A stretch of 64,000 nt of DNA from Dehalococcoidia bacterium (GTDB taxonomy: Bacteria > Chloroflexota > Dehalococcoidia > Lucifugimonadales > UBA3495). The translations under genes and the position numbers were made by a program. The stretch's first letter is position 1; each line of letters starts with the position of its first letter. Below the pieces are notes generated by a model. It was not told the DNA's origin, did no database searches, and saw only the letters and a program-made list of their open reading frames with translations. This document shows positions 36,889-44,725 of this stretch, piece after piece. The stretch lies in NCBI GenBank assembly GCA_030740155.1, contig JASLXV010000067.1:70144-134143 (forward strand). Reading direction: 5' to 3'.

Positions 36889-38015
36889 ATGAAACTCCTC
36901 CTTATTGGGTTCAGTGTCCTGCTGCTGGCGGCCTGTGGCGGTGCGGCGGCAACGGCAACCACGGTTCCACCTCCAACGGCGACGCCTACCCCACCCTCGC
37001 GTCCACTGCGACCCCCGCGCCCACGCCGGCGCCCACCAACACCCCGGTTCCGCCGCCCACCGAAACGCCTACCCTGACCGACTCGGTGCCGGTGGAATTT
37101 GCCGACCTGGCCGCCTGCTTGGAAGATCGGCTGGGCTCCGTCGTGGCACGGGAGCTGGTTTCGGGATCGAGGAGGGAGACGGCTGAGGAAGAGGCGGTGC
37201 TGGTGGACTGTCTCGCCGCAGTCACCGCGGGCATCGAGGCGGAGGCCATCACCGCGCCCGTCGTTTCCTGTCTGGAAGAGGGACTGGGCGCCGGGGTGGT
37301 CGAGGCTGTCGGCGCGGGAGCCAGGGTGTTGGACGCGGACGAGGAGGCGATCCTGGTGGAATGCCTGCTGGTGTCGGCTCTGGATTCCCAATGGGAAGAG
37401 ATCGTCGTCACCACCGAGTCATGTTTGGAAGAACGCCTGGGTCTCGATTTGGCCGCGGTGGTCGCCTCCGGGGCGGTGCACTTGAATGAGGCGGAAGAGC
37501 AGGCGCTGGGGGACTGTCTCTTGGTGGCTGCTTTGGACACCTCCGATGAAACCGCCAGTGATAGTCTCATCGACTGCCTGGCTGAAGGGTTAGGGGCCGA
37601 TATTGCCGCGTTGGTCGCCTCCGGAGCGGTGCCGTTGACCGAGGCGCAGCAGGCGTTAATGGGGGAGTGCCTTTTGGGTTCGGCCCTGAGTCCCTCTACG
37701 GAGACCGGTACCCAGAGCTTGACCGCCTGTCTGGAAGAGCGGCTGGGAGCCGATATCGCCGCGGTGGTTGCCTCGGGAGCGATACCATTGACCGAAGCCG
37801 AGGAAGCGGTGATGGGGGAGTGCCTTTTGGGATCGGCCTTTGATGACGATACTTCGTCGGATACTGTTTCGGACGGTGTGCTTGCCTGTTTGGAGAAAGA
37901 GTTGGGGACCGACATAGCTGCCGTAGTTGCTTCCGGAGCTATACCCCTGACCGATTCAGAGCAGGGGGTGATGGGCGACTGCCTGCTCGCTGAGGCTCTG
38001 GGCGGCTCGCCATGA
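36889..38015 (+). pseudogene. Lipoprotein with six C-x30-C helical repeats; -1 frameshift at CCCC 36989-36992
   Basis: MKLLLIGFSVLLLAAC lipobox in one frame; PT linker and repeats continue in another; adding one C restores TPTPTLASTATPAP. Confidence 0.8.
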
Positions 38016-38120
38016 CGCCTTGGCGCAACCATTCTCGGAGCGGACGAGCCGGCAGGGGCTCCGGCACCGCCTGATCCGCCGGTGACCGGCCGCGCCGGCC
38101 CCGGCTAATCCAATTCCGTC

Positions 38121-40548
38121 CTACCTCCCGAAGACCTCCTTCCAATCCTCATCGGTTACCTCCAGGCCCTTGACCAACAAGTGGTTTACATCGCCGAGCC
38201 GCTTGATCCCTGCCGCCAGGCTGCCCTCGATGCTGGCCAAGCGGGCGATAACCCCGGCTGGTTCCATTTCTTTGACCGTGAGAAAGTCATGGATCACGGC
38301 TTGGACCGCCTTTTCCTTGTCGGTGAGAACCAACGCTGGCGCCGCGGCCGCCGTCTGTCCGCCGAACGCCTGTGGGGCTGAGGTGGGCTGGCTCGAAGAA
38401 CTGCCGCCGCTGCTGCTGCTGCCGCTACCACTGCTACTGCTACTGCTACTGCTACCGCTGCTGCTGCTACTACTACTGCTGCTGCTGCTACTACTACTAC
38501 TGCTGCTGCTGCTGCTGCTGCTGCTGCTGGGGACGGCGGCAGTTGTGCCCTGGCCGCCCTGATCGTCGTTGTCTCCAGGCTGATTGGTATTTACTTGGCC
38601 CGGCTGTGCTCCCGCGGTTGGCTGCCCGCCGGTCCTGCCGCGGCCCGATCCCCGGGTCCCTTGTCCGGACCGGGACTGTGCGGCCTGGGCGATGGCGCTC
38701 TGCCGGTCGGCCCCACCTCGCCTCTCACCCGAGGCGCGCTGGCGGCTAAAGCACTCCTGGCCAAGGAGCCGCTTCTCATCGTCGGTTAGGTCCGCGAGGT
38801 TCGTAGGCATGCGTCCCAGAACGCTTAATATGCACTGCCGGGTAGCCTCGTTCATTCCGGTGGAGACCGATGTCGCCCGGCCACCCCGGCTTCCCTGGCC
38901 TCTCCTCTCGTTTGCCTGACTGTCGCCGAAGCACTCCCGGCCGACTCGCTGCTTGTCCTCCTCGGACAGGGCGTCGGGGCTGTCCGGCAGTTCACCGAGG
39001 ATATCAATTATGCACTGGCGGGTTTCCGCGTCCAGGTCGTCGACACCATCGGGCTTGTCGCCGCGGTCGTCGCCGAAGCACTCCCGGCCGACCCGCCGCT
39101 TCTCATCATTGGTCATATCATCGGGGCCCGATGGCATGCGGCCCAGCGTATCGACGACGCACTGCAATGTGGCGTCGTCCAGGTCGTCGGGGCCGCCGCC
39201 GCTGAAGCACGCGCGGCCCACCAGCCGCCTCTCGTCGTCGGTTATATCATCGGGGCCTGTGGGCATCCGGCCGATGGTATCGATGATGCATTGCATCTCT
39301 TCGTCGCTCGGACCGTCCCCTTCGCCACCACCGCCCGGACCGCCTCGTCCGGCGAAGCACTCCCGGCCGACCAGCCGCTTCTCGTCTTCGGTCATGTCGT
39401 CGGGGCCCGTGGGCATCCGGCCTATGGCGTCGACGATGCACTGCACCTCTTCGTCGTCCGGCCCCCCTTGTCCACGGTCACCGCCGGGTCCGCCGCCGCC
39501 GAAGCACTCCCGTCCCAGCAGGCGCTTCTCATCTTCGTTCAAGTCGTCGGAGCCAGAAGGCATGCGGCCGATGGTATCGAGGACGCATTGCGAAGTTGCT
39601 TCGTCCAGGTCGCCGGGTCCACCGGGTCCACCGGATCCGCCGGGGCCGCCAGGGCCGCCACGCCCGCCGCCACCGTAGCACGTCCGGCCAACCAGCCGCT
39701 TGTCGTCTTCGGTGAAGTCGTCGGGGCCCGTGGGCACGCGGCCCAGCGTGTCGACGATGCACTGCCTGGTGGCGTCGTCGGAGCCATTCGGTCCCCGGGA
39801 TCCGCGTTGCTCGCCTCGAGGCCCGCCCCTGTCGCTGAAGCAAGCCTGGCCGACGCGCCGCTTCTCTTCTTCAGTGAAATCGTTGGGACCCGTGGGCATG
39901 CGGCCCAGCACTTCGAGAATGCATTGGGTGCCGGCTTCGTCCGGTCTGCCCGCCCCGCCCTGGCCACGGGGTCCGCCGCGCCCGGCGCTGAAACACGTCT
40001 GGGCGATGCGGCGCTTCTCGTCGTCGCTTATGTCATTGAGACTCGAGGGCACCCGGCCCAGCACTTCCAGGATGCATTTGGTGCCGCCCCCGTCCTGATC
40101 GTTTCGGGCGCCGGCCAAACTGTTGAAGCCACCACCACCGGCGGTGCCAAAGCACGTCTGGGCGACCTGCCGCTTTTCATCGTCGGTGAAGTCATCGGGG
40201 CTTGCCGGAACGCGGCCCAGCACCCGGATGATGCACTGGCTGGACTGACCGTCCGGCGGTCCCGCGCTGGCCGCCGCCGAAGCACTTCTCGGCTATGCCC
40301 CGCTTTTCCTCATCGGTCAAATCCTGGAGGTTTGAAGGCACCCGGCCCAAAATGCCCAGGATGCATCGGAGGGCGTCCTGGTCCAGATCGCCGATGTTGC
40401 CCCCTGAGCCCGCTTGCGAATCGCGGGATTCTCCCTCGCCGGCTTCTTGGGCGAAGGCGGCAGGCGCGCCGCCCCACCAGAGCAGCAGAACAAGCAGGCT
40501 CAAAAAACCAATAATCCCAACGGGCAACAATCTCCCTTTGCTCGGCAT
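38121..40548 (-). pseudogene. Secreted protein with eleven C-x26-C repeats, Gly-rich linkers and poly-Ser; frameshift at ~40262
   Basis: Signal peptide ending AFA|Q and repeat 1 in ORF 40192-40572; repeats 2-11 in the frame of ORF 38121-40223. Confidence 0.85.
38401..38528 (-). repeat. (AGY)n trinucleotide tract encoding poly-serine
   Basis: Runs of CTG/CTA on the plus strand. Confidence 0.95.
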
Positions 40549-44033: not shown

Positions 44034-44035
44034 AG

Positions 44036-44725
44036 ATGACATCCGTGCCCCGAAGGGCAGTGGCCACTCGTGGCTCCGGGAACCCGTTCCTGACCATGCT
44101 GAAGCGGCTGATAGTCAGCGCCTTTATCGCCACACCGTTTTTCGTCGGCGGCGCATACGGTTTCGCCGTTGGCGACTTCCCGCTGTGGGCCTCCTTCGTG
44201 AAAGTCCTGGTGGGCGCAGCCCTGATGATCGTCGGCCTTTACATGAGCCTTACGGGCATAGTTCCCTCGCCGCCCCTGATCCCCGGTGAGGAGCAACTGA
44301 TTACGTGCCATCCGGCGATGAAACCGGCCTACGCCAGAATCTTCCTCAGCATCCCATTCTTCTTGGGCGCTCTTTATCTGTCGGGGTTTACCGAACTCCC
44401 CTACGTCTACCCCTTTGTCTTGTTCCTGGTCGGGATGTATAGCTTCTTCAAAGGCGCCATGCGGTACCTTCGCAACCTGCACATCACCTACACCGTGACC
44501 GACCGCAGGGTGGTCCACATGTACCGCTTCCTTTGGCTCAACACCAAGGAGATTCCGGTCGGCCGTATCATCTCGATTTCCGAGGCGCGGAGCTTCTTCG
44601 AGATTCTCACCCACCGAGGCAGCGTGGTGGTGGCCAGCGGCATCGGCGAACGGCAAGTCATTCGCATCGAGGATATCAACGACCCCGGAACCGTGGCCGA
44701 GACTGTCAGGGCGCTTCTGCCGTAA
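44036..44725 (+). CDS. Membrane protein with bacterial PH (bPH_2) domain
   Basis: About 4 TM, then YTVTDRRVV...IPVGRI...GSVVVASG...IEDINDP. Confidence 0.85.
   Translation: MTSVPRRAVATRGSGNPFLTMLKRLIVSAFIATPFFVGGAYGFAVGDFPLWASFVKVLVGAALMIVGLYMSLTGIVPSPPLIPGEEQLITCHPAMKPAYARIFLSIPFFLGALYLSGFTELPYVYPFVLFLVGMYSFFKGAMRYLRNLHITYTVTDRRVVHMYRFLWLNTKEIPVGRIISISEARSFFEILTHRGSVVVASGIGERQVIRIEDINDPGTVAETVRALLP

What the first reader, a model, noticed from the sequence alone, without database searches (positions are those of the whole stretch)
36889..44725. Locus of three exported proteins built from an unrecognised two-cysteine helical repeat
Seen: after manual frame repair, gene A (36889-38015, lipobox LAAC) has 6 repeats such as CLEERLGADIAAVVASGAIPLTEAEEAVMGEC (C-x30-C). 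Gene B (40548-38121, signal peptide ending AFA|Q) has 11 repeats such as CIVDAIGRMPTGPDDMTEDEKRLVGRECF (C-x26-C), joined by Gly/Pro/Arg linkers, then poly-Ser and a small C-terminal domain. Gene C (42592-44033, ASA|Q signal, C-terminal TM) has 5 repeats such as CVRKVLGKLPANLAEVTEEQRRLVVRSCP (C-x26-C). Shared pattern: C-hydrophobic-x3-[LI]-G ... [LMV]-[TN]-x2-[EQD]-x6-C. I do not recognise this as a named domain. Inference: a disulfide-stapled helix-loop-helix module deployed in lipid-anchored, secreted and TM-anchored forms, followed by a bPH_2 membrane protein, could form a cell-surface scaffold, adhesin or ligand-binding system. A is strongly acidic and C carries more Arg/Lys, which hints at hetero-assembly.
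Basis: partly seen in the sequence, partly recalled or inferred. Interest (0 to 1): 0.85.

Follow-up and report, generated by a model that had tools for sequence, protein, structure and literature searches.

The report
SAR202 two-cysteine repeat surface proteins
Three genes of a marine SAR202-type bacterium are built from an unnamed two-cysteine helical repeat that is likely disulfide-closed and likely acts as a spacer in cell-surface proteins; the copies here are broken by real mutations, and the third gene ends in a swappable membrane tail that travels with a dedicated PH-domain membrane protein and may be a new surface-display tag.

Summary
The repeats are real: 6 C-x30-C in A, 11 C-x26-C in B, 5 in C (one ends in Tyr). 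They match no Pfam, NCBIfam or PDB entry. A and B/C repeats are one family, bridged by Berkelbacteria (CPR) proteins carrying intermediate spacings (HHalign 91% and 98%). The module also occurs singly inside unrelated exported proteins, so it is a portable mini-domain.

C's stop and frameshift stand in 5 of 5 DNA runs, B's frameshift in 4 of 5, and A has intact and broken alleles. The locus is decaying here; intact orthologs exist.

It is two gene pairs, not one three-protein system: A with B (6 of 7 relatives) and C-type with the bPH_2 gene. C's tail (RGFFxN...DP-TM-KGN) caps unrelated cargos, and 25 of 26 tail genomes carry the bPH_2 ortholog (123 of 151 have neither). Best reading: disulfide-stapled spacer beads in dispensable surface proteins, plus a candidate protease-free display tag. 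Binding and disulfides are untested.

The parts
36889..38015 (+). Gene A: lipoprotein (lipobox LAAC, Pro/Thr linker, six C-x30-C three-helix repeats at 37116-37982). Frameshifted at ~36988-36992 in this allele; intact 375-aa alleles exist in the species
   Evidence: intact in runs X5, X10, X15 and locus L103, mixed in X1, broken in X8 and L104; model
38121..40572 (-). Gene B: secreted protein (signal AFA|Q; start 40572 or 40548), eleven C-x26-C helix-loop-helix repeats with Gly/Pro/Arg linkers. Real frameshift at ~40240-40270
   Evidence: frameshift bridged unchanged in X1, X5, X10, X15 and L103; a 14-nt insertion in X8 restores the frame by arithmetic; model
38391..38528 (-). Poly-Ser linker of B, variable in length between copies
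   Evidence: in-frame length differences in L103 and L104
38124..38333 (-). B C-terminal ~70-aa Cys-free domain, conserved in 17 B orthologs aligned, absent from others (L052, L054); unnamed
41204..42298 (+). Zn-dependent alcohol dehydrogenase between B and C; a neighbourhood marker, not part of the repeat system
   Evidence: Pfam ADH_N and ADH_zinc_N; syntenic in relatives
42491..42519 (+). Sigma-70-like consensus match upstream of C (10 of 12); not evidence of function
   Evidence: 3 sites found, 1.0 +/- 1.0 expected
42592..44033 (+). Gene C: signal ASA|Q, five C-x26-C repeats (42727-43626, fourth ends in Tyr), Gln/Glu stretch, C-terminal tail. Pseudogene here: TAG at 42712-42714 and frameshift at ~43774-43788
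   Evidence: both lesions in 5 of 5 DNA runs and L103; full-length orthologs P0076 and P0078
43896..44030 (+). Modular C-terminal tail: RGFFxN motif, spacer, DP-capped hydrophobic helix, terminal KGN; found on unrelated exported cargos
44036..44725 (+). Intact membrane protein with N-terminal hydrophobic segments and a C-terminal bPH_2 domain, 2 nt after C's stop; co-occurs with the tail
   Evidence: PF03703 32.3 bits, cut-off 22

Best explanation
A, B and C are exported proteins built from one unnamed two-cysteine helical module that is likely closed by a disulfide and likely works as an independently folding spacer bead in dispensable cell-surface proteins, and all three copies in this genome carry real inactivating mutations. 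Mechanism, step by step. (1) Shown in sequence: Sec or lipoprotein signals and invariant Cys pairs. (2) Predicted: each unit folds as helix-G-insert-[TS]xxE-helix; the insert is a short loop in B/C and an extra helix in A. (3) Inferred: the two Cys bond outside the cell, and the units hang on flexible linkers like beads. (4) Shown by genomics: there are two separate gene pairs. Lipoprotein A goes with secreted B (inferred: A would hold B at the surface). Cargo-plus-tail C goes with the bPH_2 membrane protein (inferred: the tail helix would dock on that protein to anchor or place the cargo). (5) Shown: the locus is being lost in this species.
For: Cys is 212/212 and 220/221 at the two positions in A units and 208/208 and 215/215 in B/C units (units were collected with Cys-anchored HMMs, so this is biased upward). 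Other conserved positions are Gly, Pro, hydrophobic core and a T-x-x-E cap. Copy number runs from 1 to 11 and linkers from 15 to 48 aa. Single units sit inside an HlyD-type adaptor (L080-L082) and a Big_7 protein (L083) (weak genome hits, E 9e-6 to 1e-3). Units are confident but their arrangement is not: A pLDDT 70, pTM 0.26; B pair pLDDT 79, pTM 0.43. Berkelbacteria-type proteins hold C-x21 to C-x33 units in one chain; HHalign gives B/C~CPR 97.9% and A~CPR 90.9%, with 0 of 60 column shuffles reaching either score. 14 of 16 Cys-bearing predicted lipoproteins of this genome have even Cys counts, against 643 of 1301 cytoplasmic proxies. B or its remnant lies convergent to A in 6 of 7 other A-positive genomes. 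Tail in 26 of 151 genomes, bPH_2 ortholog in 27, both in 25, neither in 123. Lesions; 39 of 40 conserved control genes in this genome show none. Cultured SAR202 are monoderm, lack peptidoglycan genes and show an outer layer (PMC10444878, passages).
Against: No DsbB, VKOR or Thioredoxin_4 was found in this genome (93.7% complete), and no DsbB or VKOR in 5 of 5 relatives. The two DSBA-family hits have no visible signal peptide, so the disulfide catalyst is unidentified. The crude signal-peptide class shows no even-Cys bias (13 of 38), and pooled exported against cytoplasmic is not significant (27:27, p = 1). The direct A~B/C profile match is weak (37.5%; 2 of 60 shuffles reach it when Cys and Gly are fixed), and column shuffles destroy helical periodicity, so that null is lenient. 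A's middle helix is strongly conserved and hydrophobic, which could mean a binding surface rather than a passive spacer. Genomes are kin, so co-occurrence counts overstate.
Confidence: 0.55

Rival explanations
1. The units are multivalent binding modules (adhesin or receptor): each bead binds a partner cell, particle or Ca2+, and tandem copies give avidity.
For: Acidic positions are conserved around the cap. Ca-binding-type TSP_3 repeats precede the units in P0001 and P0019. Related units occur in CPR proteins, and Cys-rich exported proteins of other CPR bacteria were proposed to act in attachment (PMC4736985, passages). Frequent loss fits costly surface receptors.
Against: Exposed positions vary widely among B/C units (47% mean column identity). 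Orthologs with 1, 3 or 5 units, or none, carry the same tail. No ligand-type motif or fold match was found.
Confidence: 0.2
2. A and B co-assemble into an S-layer-like or mesh coat on this peptidoglycan-free cell, with A as the lipid-anchored base.
For: A and B are linked in 6 of 7 relatives. 10 of 19 B-type proteins share their longest-contig length with an A hit. An outer layer is seen in cultured SAR202.
Against: A was found in only 8 of 151 family genomes and is broken in several, including segregating null alleles here. That is unlike an essential coat. Both proteins are acidic, and the genes are convergent, not co-transcribed.
Confidence: 0.12
3. The Cys pairs bind a metal or act as redox switches instead of forming structural disulfides.
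For: No DsbB or VKOR was found in 6 of 6 genomes tested. The Cys are invariant.
Against: Each unit has only two Cys, 21-33 residues apart, with no conserved His or CxxC. The proteins are exported, and the genome's lipoproteins show an even-Cys bias.
Confidence: 0.08
4. One reading: A, B, C and the bPH_2 protein form one charge-complementary hetero-assembly.
For: All four lie within 8 kb here, and both pairs recur near the same sbcD/NMO/ADH neighbourhood in relatives.
Against: Only this genome of 151 has A+B together with a repeat-bearing C. C is near neutral and is a pseudogene here.
Confidence: 0.05

Closest known systems
Prokaryotic C-terminal sorting signals (LPXTG/sortase, PEP-CTERM/exosortase, GlyGly-CTERM/rhombosortase, MYXO-CTERM/myxosortase)
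   Same: [quoted passage not shown] It sits on unrelated exported cargos (PD40 propeller plus BACON, CARDB/DUF11, coiled coils, repeats), occurs 1-4 times per genome, and shares its genome profile with one membrane protein.
   Different: There is no Arg cluster: 22 of 25 tails have a single K/R in the last six residues. The partner is a bPH_2 protein, not a recognised protease family. No NCBIfam model matches any of 25 tails. Defining features are from bioRxiv 10.1101/2023.06.07.544157 (passages).
YdbS/YdbT-type bPH_2 (PHb2) membrane proteins, e.g. DdE/DdF needed for export of enterocin DD14
   Same: Transmembrane segments followed by a bPH_2 domain (PF03703 over cut-off); a role in handling another polypeptide at the membrane is plausible by analogy (PMC8657885, passages).
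   Different: It is longer (229 aa against 159 for YdbS), with extra N-terminal hydrophobic segments. The adjacent gene is the tail-bearing cargo, not a YdbT-like gene. No bacteriocin context was seen.
Secreted cysteine-stapled tandem repeat proteins (Cys_rich_FGFR/GLG1 repeat, CagY DC-EC repeat, Helicobacter Hcp/Sel1-like repeats; names recalled, not from a call)
   Same: Exported, helical, tandem units with paired Cys.
   Different: No Pfam family reaches its cut-off on A, B or C. Units are separated by long variable linkers and also occur singly. The spacing C-x21 to C-x33 with a fixed Gly after helix 1 matched nothing in the libraries searched.
Unnamed exported proteins of Candidatus Berkelbacteria (P0024, P0025; relatives P0021-P0023)
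   Same: Signal peptide, 8-9 units of C-[helix]-G-insert-PTEEQ-[helix]-CF with Gly/Pro linkers; profile homology to both A and B/C units.
   Different: Annotated only as hypothetical; mixed insert lengths within one chain; no lipobox, B C-terminal domain or tail seen; genomic context not obtained.

Membership tests
C-terminal protein-sorting signal (Haft-type CTERM) | Short homology domain at the extreme C-terminus of otherwise unrelated exported proteins | tested here: met
C-terminal protein-sorting signal (Haft-type CTERM) | Signature motif followed by a transmembrane-length hydrophobic segment | tested here: met
   RG[FL][FL] in 23 of 25; D-P nearly invariant; best 19-residue hydropathy 1.7 or more in all 25
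C-terminal protein-sorting signal (Haft-type CTERM) | Cluster of basic residues at the C-terminus | tested here: not met
   1 K/R in the last 6 aa in 22 of 25, 2 in 3 of 25
C-terminal protein-sorting signal (Haft-type CTERM) | Multiple copies per genome | tested here: inconclusive
   One copy in 20 of 26 family genomes, 2-3 in six; four in G254
C-terminal protein-sorting signal (Haft-type CTERM) | Cognate processing protease with the same genome profile | tested here: inconclusive
   The only co-occurring gene found is the adjacent bPH_2 protein, with no protease family hit. No genome-wide profiling for a distant protease was done
C-terminal protein-sorting signal (Haft-type CTERM) | Cleavage and re-anchoring of the cargo | not testable with these tools
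   needs C-terminal proteomics
YdbS-like bPH_2 membrane proteins | PF03703 domain over the curated cut-off after TM segments | tested here: met
   32.3 bits against cut-off 22; 2-4 hydrophobic segments in 24 of 25 orthologs by a crude scan
YdbS-like bPH_2 membrane proteins | Adjacent co-oriented YdbT-like gene | tested here: not met
   Neighbours in the window are C and panC
Named Cys-repeat families in Pfam/NCBIfam | Score over any curated family cut-off | tested here: not met
   (best: TIGR03678 26 bits against cut-off 39.6, on 18 residues)
Named Cys-repeat families in Pfam/NCBIfam | Shared fold with a solved structure | tested here: inconclusive
   No Foldseek E under 1; best VIA Z 5.6 (A, rmsd 5.8, 78 aligned) and 2.7 (B pair); small helical units are poorly tested this way
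Bacterial lipoprotein (gene A) | N-terminal hydrophobic signal ending in a lipobox Cys | tested here: met
   LAAC at residues 13-16; ACGG consensus across the 34-sequence alignment. One relative (L051) has Tyr at this position
Disulfide-bonded repeat | Cys pair oxidised in the mature protein | not testable with these tools
   Model coordinates were not returned; indirect evidence is mixed

The most novel reading that the evidence does not exclude
SAR202 bacteria, which lack peptidoglycan, use a previously undescribed protease-free surface-display system. A swappable RGFFxN...DP-TM-KGN tail is recognised by a dedicated bPH_2 membrane protein that anchors or positions interchangeable cargos (propellers, Ig domains, coiled-coil stalks, disulfide beads). 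The bead itself is a new mini-domain family shared between SAR202 and CPR surface proteins.
Probability: 0.3. Interest if true: 0.75.

Novelty: new variant of a known kind. Interest (0 to 1): 0.5.

Why it matters
It defines two unannotated domains: a ~35-45 aa two-cysteine helical module shared by SAR202 and CPR exported proteins, and a C-terminal tail with a candidate cognate partner. If the tail-bPH_2 pairing is physical, it gives bPH_2 membrane proteins a testable client and shows how a wall-less marine monoderm might display proteins without a sortase. The apparent lack of DsbB and VKOR beside even-Cys lipoproteins raises the question of how these cells make disulfides. The limits are that the family is patchy, the copies in this genome are broken, and no function is shown.

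Tried and rejected
Assembly error as the cause of the breaks: rejected for B and C, and for A the break is a real allele. Programmed frameshifting, phase variation or recoding: not favoured. B's and C's breaks lie in no homopolymer (A's is at a short C run), C has two unrelated lesions, and A has at least two independent frameshift alleles plus a secondary deletion. Stops in relatives are of all three types.

Family and fold searches found nothing convincing: Pfam and NCBIfam, PDB sequences, Foldseek and VIA, ESM Atlas (no usable hit; best TM 0.2, unnamed clusters). None of this proves a new fold.

The B/C repeat was not found in 300 other class-level or 250 phylum-level genomes sampled; these are samples with a loose first filter. 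No context was obtained for the CPR proteins. Long Cys-bracketed units in the G195 tail cargos did not score with any repeat HMM, so no claim is made. A Tat reading of RRGFF was rejected: the double Arg is in only 6 of 25 tails.

RNA runs X18-X20 gave only low-depth contig pieces over A, B, ADH, C and bPH_2, which cannot show transcription or rank genes.

Eight paper searches showed no listed paper describing this repeat or tail. I saw listings only, except passages of PMC10444878, 10.1101/335083, PMC4736985, PMC8657885 and 10.1101/2023.06.07.544157. The library lacks most subscription papers. Supplements were not read; the Cys-rich gene table of PMC4736985 might bear on the CPR link.
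Full report
Observation. The three genes and their repeats are at the stated coordinates: six C-x30-C units in A (period 51-53 aa), eleven C-x26-C in B and five in C, of which the fourth ends in Tyr. 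Repeat HMMs hit only this locus in the six-frame genome G000. Relatives returned with names are Dehalococcoidia and SAR202 cluster bacteria, and the DNA occurs in seawater metagenomes.

The breaks are real. In four DNA runs from four studies (two flagged as a possible source of this assembly), contigs bridge B's frameshift, C's TAG (42712-42714) and C's second frameshift with no difference from the window. A fifth run, X8 (also a possible source), keeps both C lesions but has a 14-nt insertion at B's break that restores the frame by arithmetic. A is intact in X5, X10, X15 and L103, mixed in X1, and broken with a further 18-nt deletion in X8 and L104. A separate frameshift allele splits it into 234 + 160 aa. 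As a control, 39 of 40 G000 genes matched at 50% identity or more by relatives' ORFs show no stop or frameshift. So the locus is decaying in this species. Relatives show both intact copies (L052 and L054 for A+B; L057-L059, L004, L005, P0076 and P0078 for C-type) and broken ones (L050, L051, L056, L060, L061, L031). L050 also has a stop in panC, so that genome may be generally degraded.

The repeat. No Pfam or NCBIfam family reaches its cut-off. PDB sequence, Foldseek and VIA searches give nothing above background. AlphaFold2 gives three helices per A unit (pLDDT 70, pTM 0.26) and helix-loop-helix per B unit (pLDDT 79, pTM 0.43 for a pair): the units are confident, their arrangement is not. 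I could not superpose the models. Directly, the A and B/C profiles match weakly (12.8% from window repeats; 37.5% with about 220 units each; 0 of 60 shuffles reach it with Cys fixed, 2 of 60 with Cys and Gly fixed). The search with B also returned five more distant proteins, two named Candidatus Berkelbacteria, each with 8-9 units whose spacing runs from C-x21 to C-x33 in one chain. Their profile matches B/C at 97.9% and A at 90.9%, with 0 of 60 shuffles reaching either (one shuffle run printed an hhalign error, and shuffling is a lenient null). The shared skeleton is C-hydrophobic-x3-hydrophobic-G, a variable insert, [TS]-x-x-E, a helix, then C-F/L. I therefore treat A and B/C units as one family.

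Distribution. B/C units occur in 19 of 151 family genomes and in none of 300 other class-level or 250 phylum-level genomes sampled. A occurs in 8 of 151. Single units are inserted in an HlyD-type adaptor and in a Big_7 protein (weak hits), and C-type orthologs carry 1-5 units mixed with other domains and Gln/Glu/Arg-rich stalks. The unit behaves as a portable mini-domain.

Two pairs, not one system. In the seven other A-positive genomes, B lies convergent to A in five, only its C-terminal domain remains in one, and none was found in one. 10 of 19 B-type proteins share a longest-contig length with an A hit (indirect). Repeat-bearing C-type genes occur in genera without A; G007 and G067 have A+B and a tail, but on repeat-less cargo. 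Both pairs recur near the Zn-ribbon/sbcD/NMO/ADH neighbourhood, a variable slot for surface genes. C's repeat region is near neutral (47 K+R, 51 D+E), so charge-driven A-C assembly has no support.

The tail. C's last ~45 residues (RGFFxN, spacer, DP-capped hydrophobic helix, KGN) cap unrelated cargos: PD40 propeller plus BACON (L088), CARDB/DUF11 (L090), coiled-coil stalks and repeat proteins. The tail is in 26 of 151 family genomes, the bPH_2 ortholog in 27, both in 25 and neither in 123. The exceptions are G137 (tail only), G045 (partial bPH_2 match) and G160 (match at a contig edge). The tally is patchy within genera (1 of 21, 1 of 8, 1 of 7), but kin are not independent. The tail also occurs in 4 of 300 class-level genomes, up to four copies in one. 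In the 25 relatives' loci chosen for holding both genes, the tail gene lies directly upstream of the bPH_2 gene, often 1-3 nt apart. Extra tail copies lie elsewhere with no bPH_2 gene beside them (L057, L058, L030, L031, L097, L102). The partner is 46-75% identical across families while cargos are swapped. This resembles a C-terminal sorting signal with its cognate factor (features from 10.1101/2023.06.07.544157, passages), but the basic cluster is missing, no NCBIfam model matches and the partner is not a known protease. Other bPH_2 proteins are needed to export a bacteriocin (PMC8657885, passages). Physical contact was not tested.

Disulfides. For: invariant Cys pairs in exported proteins, and 14 of 16 Cys-bearing predicted lipoproteins have even counts against 643 of 1301 cytoplasmic proxies. 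Against: the crude signal-peptide class shows no bias (13 of 38; pooled p = 1), and no DsbB, VKOR or Thioredoxin_4 was found in G000, nor DsbB or VKOR in five relatives. CPR bacteria do encode MdbA-like oxidoreductases and VKOR (10.1101/335083, passages). The disulfide is inferred, not shown.

Verdict. Shown: the repeat family, its reach to CPR proteins, its modular use, the two gene pairs and the decay in this species. Predicted: helical, independently folding units. Inferred: disulfide closure, a spacer role, A holding B, and the tail docking on the bPH_2 protein (0.55 for the whole reading; 0.3 for a new display system). Cultured SAR202 are monoderm without peptidoglycan genes and show an outer layer (PMC10444878, passages), which makes the anchoring question worthwhile. 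Patchy presence and frequent loss argue against an essential coat.

Noticed in passing
G000:C8:4227-4793(-) (L107) and G000:C58:57461-57943(+) (L108): Two DSBA-family (PF01323) genes have an in-frame TGA at the first position of the CxxC-type motif, and the genome has a tRNA-Sec. They are likely selenoproteins; no signal peptide is visible.
   Followed up: partly
G000 and G003, G007, G011, G083, G100: No DsbB or VKOR was found in 6 of 6 genomes, although predicted lipoproteins of G000 show an even-Cys bias (14 of 16); the disulfide catalyst is unidentified.
   Followed up: partly
window 40870-40965: A short dispersed repeat between B and the ADH gene, with 89 BLAST pieces in the genome; it causes depth spikes and contig breaks. 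Probably a REP/MITE-like element.
   Followed up: partly
L080:2144-4633(-), L081:4758-7196(-), L082:2976-5210(-): HlyD-type efflux adaptors carrying one inserted repeat unit near the C-terminus and another large unannotated insert in the hairpin region; in L082 the gene lies near a tail plus bPH_2 pair.
   Followed up: partly
L038:1498-2628(-), G007:C7 (two identical copies about 26 kb apart): The tail is fused to what looks like a truncated hydrolase N-terminus without a signal peptide (CocE/NonD-like by recall, not tested); possibly a recent rearrangement or a duplication in the assembly.
   Followed up: no
L098 and L100 (G195:C7): Two ~1000-aa tail cargos, each followed by a bPH_2 gene, contain longer Cys-bracketed segments that did not score with the repeat HMMs.
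   Followed up: partly
window ~32050-32450: A stretch without a convincing ORF between the beta-lactamase-like lipoprotein gene and the Zn-ribbon gene; by eye it may hold a structured RNA such as RNase P RNA. Not tested.
   Followed up: no
window 28432-31935(-): A 1167-aa predicted lipoprotein with two beta-lactamase-like (SxxK) domains (family by recall, not scanned).
   Followed up: no
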